A stretch of DNA of 64,000 nt, filler included, from Basidiobolus ranarum (taxonomy: Eukaryota): the NCBI GenBank assembly GCA_040143965.1. It is 52 parts of 52 records of this genome, joined end to end, with 100 filler letters (N's around TTAATTAATTAA, not from the genome) between each part and the next. Parts side by side here need not be neighbours in the genome. Positions count along the whole stretch, not along the records: positions 1 to 1,139 come from JASJQH010006264.1; 51 more parts are not named here. One strand, written 5' to 3'. The notes beneath the pieces are model-generated. The model was not told the origin of the DNA and ran no database searches. It saw nothing but the letters and a program-made list of their open reading frames with translations. The translations under genes and the position numbers were made by a program. Shown here piece by piece: positions 1 to 35,736 of the stretch (position 1 is the stretch's first letter; each line of letters begins with the position of its first letter).

Positions 1-2
1 CT

Positions 3-722
3 CTTGACGTCATAAGATCCATGGAACATATAAAAGATAAAATTTTATTTTTGGAGTCGGCTATAATACATAAAAAATATAACTTAATTGCGCCTTTGGG
101 GTTACTTTGGTGTAAGGTTGAAGATGACACCTATTACCATATTATGTGTTACCGAGAAGAAGAAGTTGCCTATCGTGCATCTAAACTTATTCCCAAAAAA
201 AATAGTGGCAAGACCCGAATGTTTGCGGATGGTAAATGGACATATCTGGACATTGCTTATGAAGAAAGAATAATGGGCTTATTCTCACAAAGGTTTGATA
301 ATGTAAACTTACATATTTCCAACTTCCCCCTCTTCGGGTTTATTTCTGTGTTAGATAACCATATGCGCATTAAAGTAGAATATATGCGTAGAGGTTCTAA
401 CAAAGACCGAAGAATGGATAGACGCGGAAGAAGTTTGACGTCTTTGAAAAAGATAGACTTGGCTGTTATACTTGTATTATTACAAACTTTTGTCAACAAA
501 GATGATACCGAATTTCAAACACATTCCGAAAAAGCCAAAAGTGTAATGTGGGACAAGCTAATTCAAACATATGGATCTTCTTTAGATCCTTACATAGAAC
601 TTATTAAACAACGACAGATACTTGAAAGAATTTGGGTTACGGTTACTAACTGGAATGCAAAAAAAATTAGGGAGTTAATCGATGATACCCTTATGATTTC
701 GAAATTATATATTATATTATAA
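3..722 (+). CDS. 5'-truncated intronless ORF; possibly the C-terminal part of an NCLDV D6/D11-like (VETF-S/NPH-I type) SF2 helicase
   Basis: Frame is open from the contig edge (LDVIRS-M at 21). The segment PLFGFISVLDNHMRIK...KDRRMDRRGRSLTSLKKIDL resembles C-termini of NCLDV D6/D11-like proteins as I recall them. It lies 90 bp upstream of a PolB start. The helicase motifs themselves are not in the contig. Confidence 0.45.
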   Translation, partial: LDVIRSMEHIKDKILFLESAIIHKKYNLIAPLGLLWCKVEDDTYYHIMCYREEEVAYRASKLIPKKNSGKTRMFADGKWTYLDIAYEERIMGLFSQRFDNVNLHISNFPLFGFISVLDNHMRIKVEYMRRGSNKDRRMDRRGRSLTSLKKIDLAVILVLLQTFVNKDDTEFQTHSEKAKSVMWDKLIQTYGSSLDPYIELIKQRQILERIWVTVTNWNAKKIRELIDDTLMISKLYIIL

Positions 723-812
723 TCCATATATCTTAGCTCGCAATCCTACTGTAATTTTATTGTATTCTTTTTTAAAATGCTTTGTCACTTGCAAGTCATA
801 AGTTTGTAAGCC

Positions 813-1139
813 ATGGACTGCTTTTTATACGATCTACAATTGGTCTCTGAGTCGCCAGTAATTATTCATGGATATGCCAAATATAATAACCAAACCATCT
901 TACTGGTTATTCACGGCTTTAAACCTTGGTGTTACGTCGATATGCCTCTTCTTAAAGTCGAAAACATTTGTCGCTCCAACAACATCGTTTATATGAACAT
1001 CCAAGAAGTTTATATGTCTACTTCTCTTTTCATAAAAAATAAAAAATCCTTAGTTAAAGTTACGTTTACGAATTATTTAAACATGAAAAATTTTGTCAAG
1101 CACACCAATCGTTCCTTATGTCATATGTATGAACTTGAG
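813..1139 (+). CDS. Family B DNA polymerase, N-terminal fragment (giant-virus-like, 3'-truncated)
   Basis: MDCFLYD...IIHGYAKYNNQTILLVIHGFKPWCYVDMP matches the PolB/Pol-delta N-terminal 'G...T.l.i.GF.PYfY' motif. It starts directly at this domain with no eukaryotic N-terminal extension and no introns. Confidence 0.7.
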
Positions 1140-1239
1140 NNNNNNNNNNNNNNNNNNNNNNNNNNNNNNNNNNNNNNNNNNNNTTAATTAATTAANNNNN
1201 NNNNNNNNNNNNNNNNNNNNNNNNNNNNNNNNNNNNNNN
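1140..1239. other. Artificial contig linker N44-TTAATTAATTAA-N44 (recurs about every 1.23 kb)
   Basis: Identical 100-bp spacer with stops in all six frames. Contig lengths fall monotonically along the window. Confidence 0.98.
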
Positions 1240-3154: not shown

Positions 3155-3340
3155 TGTTATGATTCTGATCTTGGCATACTGATTCACTACAAATAGAACT
3201 CCTCTATTATTAGATTATGACATTATATCTGCTGTGCCATCCCTTCTTGGCAATCTGGTGTCAGTTCATCCCGATTACCTTATATGGAAGTCAAGTTCTT
3301 TGGAACATTCAATGAAACCTAACCAATCATGTTATCCCAC
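3155..3340 (+). repeat. Gypsy LTR family B, 5' part, truncated by telomeric repeats
   Basis: Matches 30611-30804 up to ...catcccac, then switches to TTAGGG. Confidence 0.8.
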
Positions 3341-3372
3341 TTAGGGTTAGGGTTAGGGTAGGGTTAGGGGGG
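3341..3372 (+). repeat. Short interstitial telomeric array (TTAGGG)3-TAGGG-TTAGGG-GGG
   Basis: Direct reading. Confidence 0.85.
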
Positions 3373-3617
3373 AGACAGTCACCCAAAGGTGAAATCTTTA
3401 TTTCAAACAAAACAAAGAAGCCATAACTACTTTTGTAGTTTCTTAACTAATGTATGGAGATCAGGAGTATTTGTATGAATGTTGCAAAGCAGAAAAGTTA
3501 AGTCAGTAGAATCTAAGACACTGTTAAGTGGAGTGGGAGGGAGTAACAAAGGTAAAAATGGTTTGTCAACAATGGAAATTAGTGGAATGAGACTAGGATT
3601 AACATAAAGCATAAAGG
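3373..3617 (-). mobile_element. Putative 3' end of a non-LTR or Penelope-like retroelement with a (CCCTAA)n tail
   Basis: Minus-strand ORF end (stop 3427), AATAAA at about 3400, hairpin TCACC/GGTGA 3379-3392, then C-rich telomeric repeats. No RT motif is visible in the fragment. Confidence 0.4.
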
Positions 3618-7431: not shown

Positions 7432-8569
7432 GATACCATACTATCTGTTTCACAGCTATCCTATGTTTCATTGAAGGATTTTTCATACATTTGCTAACTA
7501 TGTTTATGGCTTGAGCAATATCAGGCCTATAACCAGTTGTTGCATATATGAGACTTCCAACTGCACTATAGTAAGGAATATGTTTCATGATTTCAATATC
7601 CTTGGCAATCTTTGGTTCTAAATCCTTAGTGAGTTTCAGCATATGTAGTGGATTTGAAACTGTTTAACATTCTGACTTACTAAATCTGTTTAAAACTTCT
7701 CCAATTTATTTTTCCCATGTAATATATATTGTTCCAATATTAGATTTTGATGTATCTGCATTTCAAGAAAATATGCTAGTGATCCCAGATCTTAAATTTC
7801 AAATTTGGTAATTAGGCAGGTCTTATATTGTTTCCTCAGATTTGAACAATTACAAACTATTATGATATTTTAAACATAGAGAGCAATTATGACTTTGATG
7901 GCTTTTACATTCCTGAATTATATGTGGTGATCAGCATTGCTACAATGGAAAAGATGTTGGATGAAGATCTGATGAATTTTAGTATTCCTCACATAAGGAG
8001 CCTGTTTCAGACCATATAGACTTCTCTGTAGTTTACATACTTGATATTCCCTTAAATTGGCAATAAATCCCTCTATTTATTTAACGCATATATCATCATC
8101 AATTTTTCCATTAAGAGATGCTGCCTTGACATCCATTTGTTCTAGTAGCATTCCTTGGTGGGTAGCAATAGCTAAGATTGCTCTGATTGAGGTAAATGTT
8201 GCAACAATAGAAAATGTTTCATTATAGTCAATGCCATGTTTTGGATCATATATCTGTACTACTAATCTTGCTTTATTCAAGTTCATAGGTCTATCTAAGT
8301 TAAGTTTCAGTTTCAGCACCCATCTATTACCAATAGTTTTTCTTCCAGTAGGTGGGTCCACATGGATTCATGTATCATACTTGACTAGGGAGTAAATTTT
8401 GTCATTGGTAGCTTTTCTCCATTCTGTTGCTTCATCATATTTCAGGGCTTGTGTCAAATTCTCTGGTTCCAAAGATGCATTATGTGCAGATATATTCCAC
8501 CCTTTTTCAGAATTGAATATGTCAATTTCATGCTCTAATTTGAGACATCCAAAGTCCTCAGAAGAATGG
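7432..8569 (-). mobile_element. Ty1/copia reverse transcriptase, degenerate
   Basis: KARLV, GIDYNETF, QMDVKAA.LNG and PY.SAVGSL.Y...RPDIA motifs with many stops. Confidence 0.88.
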
Positions 8570-11143
8570 NNNNNNNNNNNNNNNNNNNNNNNNNNNNNNN
8601 NNNNNNNNNNNNNTTAATTAATTAANNNNNNNNNNNNNNNNNNNNNNNNNNNNNNNNNNNNNNNNNNNNTCATTCTTCACCATTACCTTGGTACAATGTG
8701 GGACAACTTAAATTACTGTTACTTCATATGGCAACGGATATGGGCATGGGAATTACTTAAATCCGCAATTTCACGCTCCGTTTCGTCCCATTTGTAAATA
8801 TGTTGAGGAACGATCATGATGATAACAAATATCGATTAGTCATGGAATTCTCCAACCTCACCTCAAGAATGAAGCAAAGATCGTCGAAGTACATGAACAT
8901 AGGATTCAGTTAAGCCAGAGTGTGCTACGAACTAGTTTTCGATAGACCCAACATAGTATTTGTGTAAATTCCACCAGCACCATTGGCCACTAGATTACCA
9001 TGCTATCACTATTGGCTCTTTGATTTGATTGCACAATTCCGGATATCAATAGAATTCCATGTTAAATTTACATCAAATCAATGGTAGAAACATTCGATAC
9101 TTATGAATGCACAAAATGGTATAATTCTACAAATTAGTAAAATTCCCTAAATTGACTTGGAAAAGGTAGAGATTGGGGCATGTAAACGATATCTTAGTTA
9201 GAGTGTTCTACTTGACGGATTTGGCTCTCTTTCACTATTTTTGTCATCGAGACTTCCCTCCATCATATGATCTCCTCTGTTTGTTAAACCGAACAAGGAA
9301 TGACAGGGTGGAATTCATTTCTCTAGGTATAACTTATTGGTCAAAGCATGGAGTTTTGAGCTTGTAAATAAATCAACGTGGGAACGGGTCATTATGAGCG
9401 AAACTAGGGCTATAAAAAGGTATATGACAGTGGTTGGCCATATTTAATTAGTTCGTGGCACCCTCCGGTTGACCAGAACCAGGATGCATATTACTTTACC
9501 TGAAGCGGATAATATCGGAAGAAATAGGAATAAAGGGAAATGATAGGTTGAGTGTTTACGGTACTCTGATTGATTCTTAGAAATTAACCGTCGTGACGAA
9601 CGATAATTGGCTTTCCTTAAATAAGCAATTGACGCCCTCAATCCTTTGCTCTTGCGTACGAAGATCGTTGGATATCTTCACATATTGGCGGTGGGTGAGG
9701 GGGAGAGCGAGAGACGACTCAAAAAAATTTCATTTGCAAGTGATTCTGAGGCAATTCCTGTATGTTGCTGATGCAAGATGAATCGAGTAAAGTGCATACT
9801 ACATTGNNNNNNNNNNNNNNNNNNNNNNNNNNNNNNNNNNNNNNNNNNNNTTAATTAATTAANNNNNNNNNNNNNNNNNNNNNNNNNNNNNNNNNNNNNN
9901 NNNNNNTCTATTTATGAGCCAAGAAAATCCCCTCACACGCCACTAGCAATGCAATTCTTCTGGTATATCACTAAACGTCATGCCGAAATCCATATTGGGA
10001 AGTAAATACATGCAAAGATAACAACTGCACGTGTTTAGTTGTTCGGAATAAATCAGTTAGAAAGCTCCACTGCGGTTAGGAATCATATGAAAACCCCGAG
10101 TATGACCAACGTATGAGAACAAACGGCGCTAAAAAAACCATCCAACTTTGAAGGGATTCCACCTACCAAGTAACTATTTAATCATCAGAATGTGATCAGC
10201 AGTATTGGAATTGGTGAGCATTGGATTTTATCGACTGCTTTTTTAACCACCGCTACTCCGGCATAATTTGGGAGAGATGACGTTGAGTATTTGTAGGCGT
10301 AAATTTCCCTTATAGTAAATCAGCTTTGGGTAAAGTGGACGGAAAGAGGATAAACTCAAAATTCCGCCCGAGATTGGAAATGCTGAATGGATTAATCAGA
10401 TAATGAGTATGTTGCGACTATGATTGGTCAAAAAAACTGGTATTTTGGTTGATGATTAATCAAAGTATTTGGATGCTTATATACCTCTAATACGGACAAA
10501 CACTAAGAAAGCTATTTAGATTAGTCGCATTTTACAGCTTAAGGGTTAGGGTGCAGTCATTAAGGAAATAAAGCGATCTCCTAGTGATCACTACATTTTG
10601 TGGCTAAACAATTGTGGCTAATAGAGTCAGGGAGAACTTAGAGTTGGACCCTCTTCTGCACCTCCTTGTATCCTCTCTTTCAGTTGGTTATATATAAGTT
10701 ACCCAACCCTAACCCATTCTAATCATTGGCTATATGAATATTGATGGGTCATGGGTTATACATAGTCAGTATTTAGGCTGAAACCATCGAACCTTGGTCA
10801 TGAAATTAATCAAGAAACATCTACCAAGAAAGATGGGTGTGAGTATGGGTACAAGAATGGGAATGGGAATGAGTATGGGTACTAGTATGGGCTAGGTGTG
10901 GGGAGATGGGTTTGGCTATCAGGGCATTTGTATCGGTGATGGTGATGAGAATGTAGCCAGTGTCTAGACTCTCTTGTATCTACAGATATTTGATTGGATG
11001 AGCTTCTTCCTTTGTTGGTTAATTGTAAGTCTAATGAAATCATNNNNNNNNNNNNNNNNNNNNNNNNNNNNNNNNNNNNNNNNNNNNTTAATTAATTAAN
11101 NNNNNNNNNNNNNNNNNNNNNNNNNNNNNNNNNNNNNNNNNNN

Positions 11144-12380: not shown

Positions 12381-13429
12381 ATGGAAATTTGCCAAAATCC
12401 ACAAGCTTATTCTCATTGTGAATGGTAACAAGAGTCAGCTATTTGCCAAGTATTGGTGCAATTCAAAATTTCCAATGTTTAGCGATTTTTCCACTGTTAG
12501 TTTGCTGGTTAAGCATATTGATGTTGTTGCCTTATGTCTGATCAGTCAAGTAAGTGCATAGGTAGAGACTAAACACAACAAGATTCTTGTAATTTTTGAT
12601 TCTCAATATGGCTGGAATTTTTGCAATGTTTGACCACAATAACAGCAACAAAACCCGATCCATGGACACAGAGTAAGTACCTCTAAGATTTGGACTAATT
12701 TGTTTGTGTGATAATCTGACAGTATTTTTAGGAAAGCTGCATGACAGACTTCTTGGTGAGATAGATCAAGATATGCAGTATTATTGTTTTAGCAATGGGA
12801 TAATCTATTCAAGCAATGATTCATCTACTTGTGGCAGGACATTTGCTGACTACAAGTTGGGGATATATTGGCTGAATTCTGTATGGAAATTTGCCAAAAT
12901 CCAAGAGCTTATCCTCATTGTGAACAGTAACAAGAGTCAGCTATTTGCCTAGTGTCAGTGCTGTTCCAAATTTCAGATGTTTAGCAATTTTTCCACTGTT
13001 AGTTTGCTGGTAAAGCGTATTGATGTTGTTGAGTTATGTCTGATCAGTCAAGTATGTGCATATGTAGGAACTAAACACAACAAGATTCTTGCATCTTTTG
13101 ATTCTCATTATGGCTGGAATAAAAAGCCTAAAATATTTAAATAAAGGCATGCATATTAATTTGAATTTCTACAGTGGTAAACCCAGTAATTTGCAATTCA
13201 AAAATTAGATTTTTGCTAAAATTGCCTGATATTGAATAATTTGTGCCAAATTTGAGGATCAATATTTTATCATGCATGAATACCATCAAAATACCTTCAA
13301 GACATCTCTGTCAGACATCAAAATCCCTGGCGGAATGCAACCCACCAATATTGTGACAGTTTTCTGACAGTTTTGCTAATTTGGAGGGTGCACCCAATCT
13401 GGATCAAATCAATTTTATTTTTGTTAGGG
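12381..13429 (+). mobile_element. CACTA/CMC transposase 3' region to right TIR (...TTTTGTTAGGG), with a partial internal duplication
   Basis: Homologous to 15016-15988, 23502-24482 and 43415-44358. Followed by a gypsy integrase fragment (LLKPLSIPDQQW). Confidence 0.75.
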
Positions 13430-16088: not shown

Positions 16089-17224
16089 ACATACCTCAAA
16101 TCCCTGTCTAACTTCTGCTCAGCACATGGGACAAACCAACAGACTACAGTGCCATATTCTCCAAAGCAGAATATAGTAGCAGAATGTGCAGACAGATTAA
16201 TAATGGAAAAGGCAAGATCAATGCTTCATGATCAAGATTTACTAAATCAGTACTGGGCTGAAATGGTTGCAACTGCAGTATATATTAGAAAGAGATGTCC
16301 TTCTAGGTCTCTATTGGCTATGACACCTTATCAAGCTTGGTTTGGAAGTAAACCTGATGTGGCTAATCTCAGAGCTTTTGGAAGTACCACATATGCAATG
16401 ATTACAGACCAGAAGAGATCAAAATTAGACCAAAAAAGCCAGAAATGTCTCTTTTTGGGATATTGTGATGAGACAAAAGGGTACAGACTGTATGATGCTG
16501 AAAATAAGAAGCTAATCAAGTCAAGGGATGTGGCAATTGCTGATGTAAAAAAATTCTCAATCACAACAGTCCAGGATCAAGAAAAACAACCAAAAATTGA
16601 TGAAAATTCTTCTTTTTCTCCTCAGATCCTGATCAGAGAGAAAAACGTTGAAAATTCCTCACCTGCAGTCTCATCAACCAAGCTTGAGGTGTTTTCATTG
16701 CCTAGATTGGTACTAGAAGTTCTAATGCCAATTTTGTATCTCAGGAGATCTAATTGGATGAGATATCTGCCTTATTACTACTCTCACACTGGCCAAAAGG
16801 AGCCTAGTGCAAATTTAGACTTTTCTGATGAGCCCAAATCAGTTCAGGAGGCTATGGAGAGTCACAACACAAAGCTTTGGAGTGCAGCAATGGCAGTGGA
16901 GTATCAGTTGCTCACAGATAACCAAACTTGGAGTTTGGTTAAGTTACCTGATGGCCAAAAATCAATTGGATGCAAATGGGTGTTTAAAGCTAAACAGCAA
17001 GCTGATGGATCTGTAGAGAGATGTAAAGCCAGACTTGTGGCTAAAGAATACTCTCAAGTGGAAGGAGTGGACTACAATGAAACATTTGCTCCTGTAGCAA
17101 AGTTTAATTCCATCAGAACCATACTAGTAGTAGCAGGAAAACACAGCTTAAAAATCCATCAAATGGATGTCAAAACTGCTTTTTTGAGTGGGGACTTGGA
17201 ACAGGCTATATTTATGGATCAACC
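16089..17224 (+). mobile_element. Ty1/copia integrase-RT polyprotein fragment
   Basis: PYSP.QN.VAE, RSKLD.KS.KCLFLGY, KWVFK.K, KARLVAK.YSQ.EGVDYNETFAPV, QMDVKTAFL. Confidence 0.93.
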
Positions 17225-19915: not shown

Positions 19916-20725
19916 TTATCTTGAAACCAATTCTTCAACATTTTTACGAATACTGCACAATATGCGAATAATATGCTCACGGTCGTCTGTATCGCTAAGA
20001 AATAATGCCTGGGTGGTTTCAGAAGGAAAGCGTTGTATTGTAATACTTTTTTTGAGAATAGTTTCTTTTTCAAGGTTTGACAAATAGTCTTTACTAAATG
20101 TAGCTTTATAAAACCTGACAGACAACCCTCTTAATATCATTCCATATACAGTGTGATCTCTTTTGATATTTGTAAAACGAGTTGTTGCAGCTAATAACAT
20201 TTCTCCACATAATTGGCATTCCCCCCCTTGATATACATTACGTTTTTCTGCTTTATTCTCCACAACTACAAAATATTTGGCATTTAGAAAATCCGTAAAA
20301 TTTCCGGAATAAACACCAAAATCGGCCTCAGAACTAATTTCTTTATCATTCCATGATAATTCCAAATGAGGTCTAGGGCGGAAGTGTAATATCTCGCTTT
20401 CAAAACCCGAATATGTTAATAAATCATAAGCAACAGAATCAACGGGTGGTTCATCTGGGAAATACCGCAATTGGTTTAAACGGTTAAAAAATGGGCGTTG
20501 GGATTGCGAAATTTTGACATCAGTGGATAAAACATTTATACCGGGTAACAAAATTCTATCAACATCAGGTCCCATGTCAATGGAAGATAATTGGGGGGGA
20601 TCTACAACATTTCCATCTTCAACAGATATTTTTAATTCTTCTAATTGTCTTGGTCTCCATTTGGAAGTATGTTTCCAGATATCGTTTTTGTTATCAGGAG
20701 GTAAATATTTGCCATTAGAAGACAT
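19916..20725 (-). CDS. PD-(D/E)xK restriction-endonuclease-fold protein (269 aa from ATG 20725), intronless
   Basis: Intact ORF with motifs E..VD, EADFGV, VVVENK, QLCGEMLLAA and YGMILRG..VRFYK, typical of REase-fold families seen in fungi and large DNA viruses. Confidence 0.65.
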   Translation of the reverse strand: MSSNGKYLPPDNKNDIWKHTSKWRPRQLEELKISVEDGNVVDPPQLSSIDMGPDVDRILLPGINVLSTDVKISQSQRPFFNRLNQLRYFPDEPPVDSVAYDLLTYSGFESEILHFRPRPHLELSWNDKEISSEADFGVYSGNFTDFLNAKYFVVVENKAEKRNVYQGGECQLCGEMLLAATTRFTNIKRDHTVYGMILRGLSVRFYKATFSKDYLSNLEKETILKKSITIQRFPSETTQALFLSDTDDREHIIRILCSIRKNVEELVSR

Positions 20726-21031
20726 TGTGTTACTTAATACATATATAAATATTGTGAAAGGTATATCACTTATATATAACAAAGTTGCCGATTAAAAACA
20801 GACCATTATGGTGTCGGGTTCGAATTGTGTATCATATAATAATCTTATATTAATTTGTATTATGTTTATTTCTAGAAACTAAAACATTTATCTAACGCAT
20901 CCTTAAAAGTTTTTAACGAAAACAAAAATAANNNNNNNNNNNNNNNNNNNNNNNNNNNNNNNNNNNNNNNNNNNNTTAATTAATTAANNNNNNNNNNNNN
21001 NNNNNNNNNNNNNNNNNNNNNNNNNNNNNNN

Positions 21032-34684: not shown

Positions 34685-35736
34685 TTACTTTTGTTGTCTC
34701 CTTGATATTTCCACGGAAGGAACTTTGCTTGAACCTCTGCGCTGAGTTGGTCGGTTCGATCCTGCTGAAGTTCCTCTACCTCGGCCAGCATGGGTTGTGG
34801 CTTGAGGTCGATGCGCTGTGGTATGCGTTGGCTCGTTCGGTCTAGTTTGCGGTTTGTTTGTATCTACAGTCTCTTCTTCAGATGTGGAGCCTTCACTTAA
34901 TGGGTCAACCAGCCATTGCTGCTGGCGCGCAGCTCTACGCGTCAACCCGGAATGTCTCACTTGAGGTTTGTGCTTGACAGTTATTGCTTCTTCAACCACG
35001 GTAGAAGCTTCATCTCTTTTGACTGGCCGCCGTGACCTCTGTTGCATGGCGGAACGTGTTGGAGCGTGTCGTCTACCTTGTGGTTTGTGTTTGGCAGTTC
35101 TTGCCTCTTCAACCACGGTAGAAGCTTCATCTCTTTTGACTGGCCATGGCCGCGGTCGCATGGCAGTACGTGTTGGAGCAAGTTGTCTACCTTGTGGTTT
35201 GTGTTCTGTGGTTATTGCTTCTTCAACCACAGTGGAAGCTTCATCTCTTTCGACTGGCCGTTGCCGTGGTCGCATTCCAGTACGTGTTGGAGCGAGTCGT
35301 ATACCTTGAGGTTCGCGTTCGGCAGTTCTTGCCTCTTCAACCACGGTAGAAGCTTCATCTCTTTCGACTGGCCGCCGTGACCTCTGTTGCACGGCAGAAC
35401 GCGTCGGAGCATATTGTCTACCTTGAGGTTTGTGTTCGACTGTTGTGGCTTCTTCAAGCTCAGTAAGAGCTTCACTATCTCTCTCAAACACCCGTTGTCT
35501 TGGTCTCGTGGGGGTACGCGTAGTAGCGGATCGCTGTCTTAGTAGATCGCTCTCAGGTGTCAGATCTTCATCCAACAAAGTGGAAGGTTCAAAAATTCTT
35601 GCGGTTGCCCTTTGTTGCTGTCGCGCGGTTGTACGCGTTAAACCGCTCCTTGGAGCTGACTCTTCTCCAGATGTAAAAAGCTCACTGGTTGGTTCGGTTG
35701 AATCAGGTAAATCGCGCGCTACGATGCGTGAATATG
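34685..35736 (-). CDS. 5'-truncated disordered protein with 38-39-aa tandem repeats
   Basis: Frame open from the contig edge to TAA (about 350 codons). Repeat RPV(E/K)RDEASTVVEEA.T..HKPQGR..APTR at 114-117-bp spacing. CpG-rich. Confidence 0.7.

What the first reader, a model, noticed from the sequence alone, without database searches (positions are those of the whole stretch)
1..1139. Giant-virus (NCLDV)-like two-gene fragment in a fungal-type assembly
Seen: two co-oriented intronless ORFs 90 bp apart, with no stops and normal CpG content, unlike the decayed TEs around them. The second starts directly with a PolB N-terminal motif (IHGFKPWCYVDMP). Known: PolB is an NCLDV core gene, and endogenous or infecting NCLDVs have been reported in early-diverging fungi. 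Inferred: the first ORF is the tail of a D6/D11-like transcription helicase, and the contig comes from an undescribed fungal giant virus, either recently integrated or co-sequenced.
Basis: partly seen in the sequence, partly recalled or inferred. Interest (0 to 1): 0.8.

Follow-up and report, generated by a model that had tools for sequence, protein, structure and literature searches.

The report
Fungal giant-virus-like helicase and polymerase fragment
This 1.1-kb contig carries the end of a poxvirus-type transcription helicase gene and the start of a viral-type DNA polymerase gene, from a lineage of giant-virus-like DNA already reported in Basidiobolus and other early-diverging fungi, so it is real but not new.

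Summary
Positions 1-1139 are one whole short contig; the window is 52 unlinked contigs joined by artificial spacers. It carries two co-oriented open frames 90 bp apart, with normal CpG (32 seen, 31.2 expected).

ORF1 (3-722) is the last 239 residues of a ~950-aa SNF2/Helicase_C protein. It is 70% identical to a Basidiobolus meristosporus protein. The core of its full-length relatives matches vaccinia D6 (VETFS) and D11 (NPH-I) best among solved structures.

ORF2 (813-1139) is the first 109 residues of a ~800-aa family B DNA polymerase, by sequence (E 3.6e-12 to an 820-aa PolB, aligned from residue 1) and by fold (best matches ASFV and archaeal PolB N-terminal domains).

Relatives of both genes lie together on IMG/VR viral contigs with D5 primase-helicase, a capping-type methyltransferase, split RPB1, RPB2, UDG and FEN1. 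This gene set and host range match the "fundsalphavirus" endogenous NCLDV elements of Gong et al. 2020, which list two Basidiobolus species.

So the gene calls and NCLDV origin are supported, and "undescribed" is not. Whether the fragment is integrated, episomal or co-sequenced could not be tested, because no genome or reads were available. No capsid gene was found in relatives. It is a new member of a known kind, of modest interest.

The parts
3..722 (+). ORF1: the C-terminal 239 codons plus stop of a D6/D11-like SNF2 (superfamily II) helicase gene. The contig start cuts it; about 717 codons are missing upstream, judged from the 956-aa relative P0001.
   Evidence: Open from the first base. 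It is 70% identical over 100% of its length to P0001 (956 aa, PF00176+PF00271) and to P0002 (Basidiobolus meristosporus, partial), and 45% to P0003 and P0004. It aligns colinearly to the shared C-terminal end with no frameshift or stop. ORF1 itself has no Pfam, PHROG or fold match.
723..812 (.). A 90-bp AT-rich intergenic spacer (GC 0.31) between the two genes. It presumably holds the helicase 3' signal and the polymerase promoter; this is inferred.
   Evidence: Coordinates come, composition. No conserved motif could be established.
813..1139 (+). ORF2: the first 109 codons (N-terminal domain) of a family B DNA polymerase gene. The contig end cuts it; about 700 codons are missing downstream, judged from relatives of 798-831 aa.
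   Evidence: It has one hit among 1.84 billion representatives: P0005, 820 aa, E 3.6e-12, 37% identity, residues 1-108 on 1-108. P0005 matches PF00136 (3e-77) and PF03104 (8e-29). tblastn hits the PolB N-termini of L003 and L002 (9e-10, 3e-7). The AF2 model has pLDDT 92.2. Foldseek gives 45 PDB hits at E<=0.001, and every row shown is a B-family polymerase; the best is ASFV PolB 9l8u_A, E 3.4e-5, TMq 0.63.
1140..1239 (.). An artificial joiner (N44, TTAATTAATTAA, N44) that marks the end of the contig. It is not biological sequence.
   Evidence: The same joiner recurs between all 52 pieces of the window.

Best explanation
The contig is a fragment of a Nucleocytoviricota-type (NCLDV) genome or genome-derived insert. 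It belongs to the lineage published as 'fundsalphavirus' endogenous elements of early-diverging fungi, and its nearest named relative is in Basidiobolus.

It holds the 3' end of a D6/D11-like SNF2 helicase gene. In poxviruses, proteins of this type act with the virus's own RNA polymerase, as early-transcription factor or termination ATPase. Ninety bp downstream on the same strand lies the 5' end of a ~800-aa family B DNA polymerase gene, the replicase.

In relatives these two genes belong to a self-contained replication and transcription module: D5 primase-helicase, a capping-type methyltransferase protein, RPB2, RPB1 split in two, UDG and FEN1.

Shown: the gene identities, the linkage of the two genes in relatives, purifying selection along ORF1's lineage, and the lack of the CpG decay seen in the assembly's repeats. 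Inferred: the function of the two proteins, and that the copy is endogenous. I lean about 60:40 to an endogenous or multi-copy insert over a free or co-sequenced virus. Nothing here tests that.
For: - ORF1 is 70% identical over its full length to the C-termini of P0001 (956 aa) and P0002 (B. meristosporus) and 45% to P0003 and P0004. These were 4 hits among 1311 candidates.
- P0001, P0003 and P0004 carry SNF2-rel_dom and Helicase_C. P0001's only two PDB sequence hits at E<=0.01 are vaccinia VETFS (4.6e-13) and NPH-I (5.8e-13).
- ORF2 aligns from residue 1 with the PolB P0005 and with at least 40 of 120 PolBs of that family. Its fold is a PolB N-terminal domain.
- Linkage. P0004 and P0005 both report a longest contig of 19,807 bp, and P0003 and P0006 one of 8,806 bp. 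On IMG/VR contigs L001/L011, L002 and L003 the helicase and PolB lie 2.7-6.8 kb apart.
- Neighbouring genes on those contigs include RPB2, RPB1-N, RPB1-C, D5_N, a methyltransferase with an mRNA guanine-N7 match, UDG and XPG/FEN1.
- PolB tree (FastTree). 40 fungal-type PolBs plus L001-L003 form a clade with support 100 on a branch of 0.82, apart from 72 other IMG/VR PolBs. The clade includes PolBs named from Linnemannia elongata, Mortierella sp., Podila, Bifiguratus adelaidae, Ramaria and Clydaea.
- Gong et al. 2020 list Bifiguratus adelaidae, Mortierella elongata and two Basidiobolus species as fundsalphavirus hosts, and name the same flanking genes.
- Myers et al. 2026 (passages) state that the fungal EVE PolBs fall inside the Nucleocytoviricota clade, with an animal PolB as outgroup.
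- Selection. ORF1-lineage changes hit 3 of 78 family-conserved columns against 22 of 67 variable ones, Fisher p 3.6e-6.
- 92% of the contig is coding, and no gaps suggesting introns appear in the alignments.
Against: - Neither catalytic core lies on the contig, so both assignments rest on flanking domains and on relatives.
- ORF1 alone has no Pfam, PHROG, PDB or fold match. Best VIA Z was 3.5, and Foldseek found nothing at E<=0.001.
- ORF2 has only one relative at E<=0.001 in the 1.84-billion library, none in the word-indexed search, and none by sequence in the PDB.
- ORF2 carries L where the family has a nearly invariant W.
- I could not compare directly with Gong et al.'s sequences, because the supplements are closed. 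I could not build a tree with named NCLDV or cellular references.
- P0005 scores 225-293 bits against 19 non-clade IMG/VR PolBs and 221.7 against human Pol delta. On similarity alone the margin over cellular Pol delta is small.
- No capsid or packaging gene was found in about 44 kb of a 51.7-kb relative contig, nor in L002 or L003.
- Myers et al. found no MCP homologue in 40 non-zoosporic fungi by hmmsearch.
Confidence: 0.82

Rival explanations
1. The fragment comes from a virus that is replicating, or episomal, in the sequenced fungus. It is not an inherited insert, and it assembled poorly because of low or uneven coverage.
For: - Both frames are intact, with no stop or frameshift over 348 codons.
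- Changes avoid conserved columns.
- CpG o/e is 1.03 in an assembly whose repeats are at 0-0.3.
- The layout is compact, with a 90-bp spacer.
- The contig shares no sequence with the other 51 contigs, whereas 43 of 52 contigs share similarity with one another.
Against: - Host-gene-like contigs in the window also have near-normal CpG, for example the RGS fragment contig at 0.83. So CpG does not separate virus from host gene.
- An abundant virus should assemble into long contigs, not 1.1 kb.
- The published members of this lineage in Basidiobolus are endogenous, and some have premature stops and frameshifts.
- The selection signal may predate integration.
- Read depth could not be examined.
Confidence: 0.2
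2. The contig is contamination: a virus of some other organism (protist, soil or gut microbe) that was sequenced along with the fungus.
For: It is a short orphan contig with no host flank. Relatives occur in many environmental metagenome contigs.
Against: - The nearest named relative, at 70%, is annotated in a Basidiobolus genome on a 33-kb contig.
- The contig's GC of 0.331 lies within the range of the other contigs of the window, 0.26-0.50 and mostly 0.33-0.39.
- The lineage was found repeatedly in 14 fungal species.
Confidence: 0.07
3. The fragment belongs to a capsid-less cytoplasmic linear plasmid (a killer-plasmid-like VLE). Such elements also carry an NCLDV-derived helicase and RNA polymerase, and were recently reported in Zoopagomycota and Mucoromycota.
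For: - VLE housekeeping genes include an NCLDV-derived helicase (PMC13348850, passages).
- No capsid gene was seen in the relatives I read.
- IMG/VR flags L002's 17-kb record as having inverted terminal repeats.
Against: - VLE polymerases are protein-primed. P0005 and the L002, L003 and L011 PolBs match PF00136 and PF03104, not PF03175.
- P0005's best PDB matches are Pol delta and archaeal PolB.
- ORF2's fold matches the N-terminal domain of ASFV and archaeal PolBs.
- L002's 145-nt terminal repeat contains a 57-nt interspersed repeat that also occurs inside the contig, so it looks like a break at a repeat.
- Relative contigs reach 51.7 kb and carry D5, UDG and FEN1.
Confidence: 0.03
4. These are ordinary cellular genes of the fungus: a SNF2 remodeller and Pol delta or zeta.
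For: Human and yeast Pol delta are the top PDB sequence matches of P0005. JGI auto-names call several relatives 'DNA polymerase delta subunit 1'.
Against: - The polymerase family is only ~800 aa and ends about 20 residues after the region aligned to Pol delta (P0005 223-797 on 370-969 of a 1107-aa chain). That leaves no room for the C-terminal Cys-rich domain of eukaryotic replicative polymerases; that domain is recalled knowledge.
- The two genes are 90 bp apart, and the alignments show no gaps suggesting introns.
- Relatives sit beside viral-type D5, capping and split RNAP genes on viral contigs.
- The helicase core's only PDB matches are poxviral.
Confidence: 0.02

Closest known systems
'Fundsalphavirus' endogenous NCLDV elements of fungi (Gong, Zhang and Han 2020, Virus Evol 6:veaa008; main text read)
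   Same: - The same kind of host: Basidiobolus meristosporus and B. heterosporus are listed.
- The same marker, a family B DNAP.
- The same flanking gene set that I see in relatives: D5, D6/D11-like SNF2 helicase, SAM methyltransferase, RPB2, and RPB1 in N- and C-terminal pieces.
- PolB relatives found here are named from species on their host list (Bifiguratus adelaidae, Mortierella/Linnemannia elongata).
   Different: - ORF1 is only 70% identical to the one Basidiobolus protein I could compare, so this is a distinct copy or lineage.
- Both frames are intact here, whereas they report stops and frameshifts in some copies.
- Their sequences and gene-order figure are in a supplement I could not open, so identity with one of their 87 sequences is not excluded.
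Vaccinia virus D6 (VETFS, PDB 7amv_W) and D11 (NPH-I, PDB 6rfl_Y)
   Same: The SNF2-type ATPase core of ORF1's full-length relative P0001 matches these two, and only these, by sequence in the PDB at E<=0.01.
   Different: The poxvirus proteins are 631-637 aa. The fungal-type proteins are 912-956 aa, with a ~380-residue C-terminal extension. ORF1 lies wholly in that extension and shows no sequence or fold match to either. D6-like and D11-like roles cannot be told apart.
ASFV DNA polymerase and archaeal family B polymerases (PDB 9l8u, 8ywm, 7om3 and others)
   Same: The ORF2 model superposes on their N-terminal domain (E 3.4e-5 to about 1e-3, TMq 0.54-0.69).
   Different: Sequence identity is 10-16%. 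The ~800-aa polymerases of this lineage are shorter than the solved ASFV chains (963-986 residues).
Mycodnaviridae / Mycodnavirales, giant viruses of zoosporic fungi (Myers et al. 2026, PMC13533422, passages; GVMAGs V2 paper PMC13524828, passages)
   Same: These are fungus-associated Nucleocytoviricota with PolB, SFII helicase, D5 and capping enzyme.
   Different: [quoted passage not shown] Mycodnaviridae have MCPs and infect zoosporic fungi. I did not compare sequences with them.
Zymocin-like cytoplasmic killer plasmids / VLEs (PMC13348850, passages)
   Same: They carry an NCLDV-derived helicase, RNA polymerase and capping enzyme, and occur in Zoopagomycota and Mucoromycota.
   Different: Their polymerase is protein-primed. 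The polymerase here belongs to the PF00136/PF03104 type.

Membership tests
NCLDV D6/D11-like SNF2 (superfamily II) helicase | An SNF2-type ATPase core (SNF2-related N-lobe plus Helicase_C) | not testable with these tools
   The core would lie upstream of base 1, off the contig. It is present in the full-length relatives: P0001, P0003 and P0004 match PF00176 and PF00271 above cut-off.
NCLDV D6/D11-like SNF2 (superfamily II) helicase | The core is closest to poxvirus D6 (VETFS) and D11 (NPH-I) | tested here: met
   Tested on relative P0001, not on the window. The only 2 PDB sequences at E<=0.01 are 7amv_W VETFS (4.6e-13) and 6rfl_Y NPH-I (5.8e-13).
NCLDV D6/D11-like SNF2 (superfamily II) helicase | The window ORF is colinear with the C-terminal region of such proteins | tested here: met
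   70%, 70%, 45% and 45% identity at 99-100% query coverage. The alignment runs to the shared C-terminal end in 7 of 7 relatives.
NCLDV D6/D11-like SNF2 (superfamily II) helicase | The C-terminal domain fold resembles that of solved D6 or D11 | tested here: inconclusive
   AF2 model with pLDDT 81. Foldseek on the PDB gave 0 hits at E<=0.001. VIA-align against 48,161 chains gave a best Z of 3.5 and none at Z>=5.
Family B DNA polymerase (PF00136/PF03104 type) | The N-terminal domain fold | tested here: met
   Model pLDDT 92.2. There were 45 PDB hits at E<=0.001, and all rows shown are B-family polymerases.
Family B DNA polymerase (PF00136/PF03104 type) | Exonuclease and polymerase catalytic domains | not testable with these tools
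   These lie beyond the contig end at 1139. They are present in the closest relative P0005 (PF03104 8.4e-29, PF00136 3e-77).
Family B DNA polymerase (PF00136/PF03104 type) | Sequence homology starting at the polymerase's own start codon | tested here: met
   ORF2 residues 1-108 align on P0005 1-108, E 3.6e-12. Alignment with 32 PolB N-termini shows the shared G-[YF]-x-P-x-C-Y block.
Fundsalphavirus (Gong et al. 2020) | The DNAP falls in their PolB clade | tested here: inconclusive
   ORF2 is too short to place. Its best relative P0005 lies in a clade with support 100 that includes PolBs named from Bifiguratus adelaidae and Linnemannia elongata, both species on their host list.
Fundsalphavirus (Gong et al. 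2020) | A D6/D11-like helicase among the genes flanking the DNAP | tested here: met
   The two genes are 90 bp apart in the window. They are also linked on L001/L011, L002 and L003.
Fundsalphavirus (Gong et al. 2020) | Integration in a fungal chromosome (being an EVE) | not testable with these tools
   The contig has no flank.
Protein-primed PolB elements (killer-plasmid VLEs, Polintons) | A polymerase of the protein-primed type (PF03175) | tested here: not met
   P0005 and the L003 and L002 PolBs match PF00136 and PF03104 and not PF03175. The ORF2 fold matches the N-terminal domain of ASFV and archaeal PolBs.
Cellular Pol delta/zeta | A long N-terminal lead and a C-terminal Cys-rich domain (recalled features) | tested here: not met
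   Tested on the relative P0005. Residues 223-797 of 820 align to 370-969 of the 1107-aa human Pol delta, so there is no room for either. ORF2 enters the N-terminal domain at residue 1.
Mycodnaviridae | Placement with Mycodnaviridae PolB and MCP | not tested
   No Mycodnaviridae sequences were at hand. The authors state that earlier fungal EVEs are distinct from their clade.

The most novel reading that the evidence does not exclude
The contig is a piece of a still-functional virus of this lineage, either replicating or only just endogenised, in a Basidiobolus-like, non-zoosporic terrestrial fungus. Its helicase and polymerase genes are intact and selected.

The lineage has so far shown no recognisable capsid gene. 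It could therefore be a capsid-divergent or capsid-less NCLDV derivative that persists inside hyphae.
Probability: 0.15. Interest if true: 0.75.

Novelty: new member of a known kind. Interest (0 to 1): 0.3.

Why it matters
No dsDNA virus is yet known to replicate in a non-zoosporic fungus. The lineage this fragment belongs to is known only as genomic 'fossils'. An intact, selectively constrained helicase-polymerase pair with undecayed CpG, in an assembly that heavily mutates its repeats, is a small hint that some copies may be young or active.

It is only a hint. The lineage, its gene set and its presence in Basidiobolus were published in 2020, and a 1.1-kb orphan contig cannot show integration, activity or genome size. 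Its practical value is as a flag: the rest of this assembly should be screened for the remaining viral genes and their read depth.

Tried and rejected
**Direct searches that found nothing**
- Pfam and PHROGs on both ORFs gave nothing above threshold.
- PDB sequence search with ORF2 gave 0 hits at E<=10.
- tblastn of ORF2 against the phage collection found no match.
- The word-indexed search for longer relatives of ORF2 found none among 17 candidates.
- The protein Atlas gave no usable hit for ORF2. For ORF1 it gave only bacterial hypothetical clusters at 0.90 with low shared-feature counts, and structure TM<=0.29. It holds ORF1 from residue 7, possibly from this same source.
- Fold search of the ORF1 model gave no Foldseek hit at E<=0.001 and a best VIA-align Z of 3.5. 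The C-terminal domain stays without a known fold, and a D6-versus-D11 call is not possible.
- The search for related loci with P0001 alone found nothing. An alignment of three relatives was needed.

**Capsid search in relatives**
- PF04451 on the one record held (L002's) found no match, and the control genomes did not ring either, so that search is uninformative.
- Pfam on ORFs covering about 44 kb of the 51.7-kb contig behind L001/L011/L090/L091, and on L002 and L003, showed no capsid or A32 family.
- The 476-aa ORF I suspected of being a capsid gene has only a C-terminal B-lectin match. The 572-aa ORF has no PDB match.
- This does not show that a capsid is absent.

**Leads that fell through**
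- L002's flagged inverted terminal repeats made me consider a small linear element. The 145-nt arms contain a 57-nt interspersed repeat that also occurs inside the contig, so I take it for a contig break at a repeat.
- A TGTAAATTGA-like word lies upstream of several L011 genes. It has 10 matches against 5.9 expected, and 8 of 100 shuffles reach that count. It is not clearly present in the window's spacer.
- Other viral pieces in the window: tblastx of all 52 contigs against 89 viral loci hit only contig 1.

- The whole genome.
- Cluster member names.
- Sequencing runs and read depth.
- Earlier findings of this scan: three look-ups, all empty.
- Paper supplements are closed, so I did not see Gong et al.'s Table S1, Fig. 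S2 or accession lists, nor Myers et al.'s S6 Fig.

**Not attempted**
- A PolB tree with named NCLDV and cellular references could not be built, because no such sequences were obtainable.
Full report
**What the window is.** One search shows the 64-kb window is not one stretch of genome. It is 52 pieces of 1139 down to 1112 bp, sorted by falling length, each separated by N44-TTAATTAATTAA-N44. The finding, 1..1139, is therefore one complete short contig from the tail of a fragmented assembly, and the sequences 'around' it are unlinked.

Of the 52 pieces, 43 share similarity with another piece. Most have CpG o/e between 0 and 0.3. Three of the ten long frames I tested carry Ty1/copia-type domains (RVT_2, rve, gag_pre-integrs), one carries an RGS domain, and six carry nothing. 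So this is a repeat-rich eukaryotic assembly whose repeats have lost their CpGs. Contig 1 shares nothing with the other pieces.

**The observation.** A frame open from the first base runs to a stop at 720-722 (239 codons). Ninety bases later an ATG at 813 opens a frame that runs to the contig end (109 codons), on the same strand.
- CpG is 32 observed against 31.2 expected.
- No shuffle of the contig out of 2000 gave a 239-codon frame. 54 of 2000 gave one of 109 or more, so ORF2 needs homology to count as real.
- The quoted motif is present at ORF2 residues 33-45.

**ORF1.** ORF1 has no Pfam or PHROG match of its own. A search for longer proteins found four among 1311 candidates:
- P0001: 956 aa, 70% identity, 100% coverage.
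- P0002: a partial Basidiobolus meristosporus CBS 931.73 protein, 70%.
- P0003: 950 aa, 45%.
- P0004: 912 aa, 45%.

ORF1 aligns with their last ~239 residues right to a shared C-terminal end, with no frameshift or stop. It also aligns with the helicases of three IMG/VR contigs at 26-32%.

The full-length proteins carry SNF2-rel_dom and Helicase_C. P0001's only PDB sequence matches at E<=0.01 are vaccinia VETFS (D6) and NPH-I (D11). 'Tail of a D6/D11-like helicase' is therefore right, with two limits. The ATPase core is off the contig. ORF1 lies in a ~380-residue C-terminal extension that the poxvirus proteins lack.

An AF2 model of ORF1 (pLDDT 81) found no known fold. Foldseek gave nothing at E<=0.001, and the best VIA-align Z was 3.5 over 48,161 chains.

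Changes on ORF1's lineage hit 3 of 78 columns that are conserved across the family, against 22 of 67 variable columns (p 3.6e-6). The gene was therefore under purifying selection for most of its divergence.

**ORF2.**
- The exhaustive HMMER search of 1.84 billion representatives gave a single hit: P0005, 820 aa, E 3.6e-12, 37% identity, residues 1-108 on 1-108.
- P0005 is a family B polymerase (PF00136 3e-77, PF03104 8.4e-29).
- ORF2 also matches the N-termini of at least 40 of the 120 relatives of P0005, and of the PolBs on L003 and L002.
- The alignment shows a shared G-[YF]-x-P-x-C-Y block.
- An AF2 model (pLDDT 92.2) has 45 PDB matches at E<=0.001. All rows shown are B-family polymerases, led by the ASFV polymerase and followed by archaeal PolBs.
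- ORF2 is the N-terminal domain of a PolB. The catalytic domains lie beyond the contig end.

**Virus or cell?** The helicase and PolB families are linked elsewhere. Three IMG/VR viral contigs carry both genes.

Around them, Pfam finds the following:
- RPB2, and RPB1 in separate N- and C-terminal genes.
- A D5_N/DUF5906 primase-helicase.
- A methyltransferase with an mRNA guanine-N7 match. The 590-aa homologue in L002 and L003 shows KxDG-like and SAM-motif strings in its consensus (my reading).
- UDG and XPG/FEN1.
- A lysozyme, a GNAT, DUF5757, and proteins with B-lectin domains.

This is an NCLDV-type replication and transcription module.

The polymerase is not protein-primed: no PF03175 match. 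It is too short for the terminal domains of eukaryotic Pol delta.

I built a FastTree of 115 PolBs. The rows were 40 of 101 family members, namely every third unnamed one plus the named ones and P0005/P0006, and 75 of 82 IMG/VR ORFs. I dropped ORFs under 650 or over 1400 aa and duplicates. The fungal-type PolBs plus L001-L003 form one clade (support 100, stem 0.82). Its nearest neighbours are five IMG/VR PolBs, but that join has support 90 (unstarred) and involves long branches. I had no named NCLDV or cellular sequences, so the tree cannot by itself exclude a cellular sister.

By bit score, P0005 is only modestly closer to 19 non-clade viral PolBs (225-293 bits) than to human Pol delta (221.7).

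**What is already in print.** Gong, Zhang and Han 2020 (PMC7017919; main text read) screened 1,006 fungal genomes with DNAP.
- They found 87 NCLDV-like sequences in 15 genomes.
- They named the main lineage fundsalphavirus and placed it near Pithovirus.
- They listed D5, D6/D11-like SNF2 helicase, SAM methyltransferase, RPB2, RPB5 and RPB1 N and C pieces as flanking genes.
- They named Basidiobolus meristosporus and B. heterosporus among 14 host species, along with Bifiguratus adelaidae and Mortierella elongata. PolBs from those last two species appear among P0005's relatives.

Myers et al. 2026 (PMC13533422; passages) report that such fungal EVE PolBs fall inside Nucleocytoviricota, distinct from their Mycodnaviridae. 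They found no MCP homologue in 40 non-zoosporic fungi by hmmsearch, and one non-zoosporic hit across 2,543 MycoCosm genomes. A search for 'Basidiobolus' with 'Nucleocytoviricota' found no paper. With 'NCLDV' it found only Gong et al..

The killer-plasmid paper (PMC13348850; passages) describes VLEs with NCLDV-derived helicases in the same fungal phyla, but with protein-primed polymerases.

**Verdict on the interpretation.** The gene identities and NCLDV origin are supported. 'Undescribed' is not supported at the level of lineage, gene set or host genus. At 70% identity to the only Basidiobolus protein I could compare, this copy is a distinct member.

'Giant' is unproven for this lineage. I found no capsid or packaging gene in the relatives, and I know no genome size.

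'Integrated or co-sequenced' could not be addressed: no genome, no read tools, no flanks. Both contig ends fall inside unique genes. That fits either low coverage or several diverged copies. I lean to an endogenous or multi-copy insert, about 60:40, without a test.

**Mechanism, as far as it can be stated.** By analogy with the poxvirus proteins, the helicase would use ATP to act with the virus-encoded RNA polymerase in initiation or transcript release. ORF1's conserved, basic C-terminal domain would plausibly be the part that binds nucleic acid or polymerase. The PolB would copy the viral genome together with the D5 primase-helicase. Both statements are inference from relatives.

What is shown is only that the two gene fragments are intact, selected, adjacent and of this lineage.

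**Score.** This is a real, correctly read but already-described kind of element. It is a new member of a known kind, with interest about 0.3. Its main value is as a flag to screen the full assembly.

Noticed in passing
window 1140-1239 and every ~1.24 kb after: The window is 52 short contigs (1139 to 1112 bp, sorted by length) joined by N44-TTAATTAATTAA-N44 spacers. Any apparent neighbourhood across a spacer is artificial.
   Followed up: yes
window 1240-64000: Most contigs have CpG o/e of 0-0.3 at GC of about 0.33-0.41. 43 of 52 share similarity with another contig. Those tested carry Ty1/copia domains. This looks like a strong repeat-targeted C-to-T decay (methylation or RIP-like) in the host genome.
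   Followed up: partly
window 19919-20791 (-): A 291-codon open frame on a contig with CpG o/e 1.02 and GC 0.316, much like contig 1. It has no Pfam match and no similarity to the 89 viral loci. Its origin is unknown.
   Followed up: partly
window 34688-35734 (-): A contig with GC of 0.50, the highest in the window, carrying a 349-codon frame made of ~30-residue tandem repeats rich in R, T, E and Q. It has no Pfam match.
   Followed up: no
L003 13243-17016, L002 9523-12939, L090 17641-19071: The viral contigs related to the finding each encode a protein with a bulb-type (B_lectin) mannose-binding lectin domain, of 1257, 1138 and 476 aa. This is unusual cargo and might be a surface or attachment protein.
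   Followed up: partly
L002 1-145 / 17025-17169 and intergenic regions 3241-3499, 7955-9190, 12919-13326: L002 is full of interspersed intergenic inverted and direct repeats of 23-73 nt. Its flagged terminal inverted repeat contains a 57-nt repeat that also occurs inside the contig.
   Followed up: partly
L011 upstream of genes at 3219, 4523, 6766, 13146, 15471: A TGTAAATTGA-like word sits within about 80 bp upstream of several genes and may be a promoter. The count is not significant over the whole locus: 10 against 5.9 expected, and 8 of 100 shuffles reach it.
   Followed up: partly
L011 3522-4523 (-): The giant-virus-like contig encodes a phage-type lysozyme fused to a peptidoglycan-binding domain. 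This is odd for a virus of a eukaryote.
   Followed up: no
one search hit list: PolBs of this ~800-aa family are also named from a basidiomycete (Ramaria rubella), a chytrid (Clydaea vesicula) and two EukProt gene models. Several members carry intein domains (PF14890).
   Followed up: no
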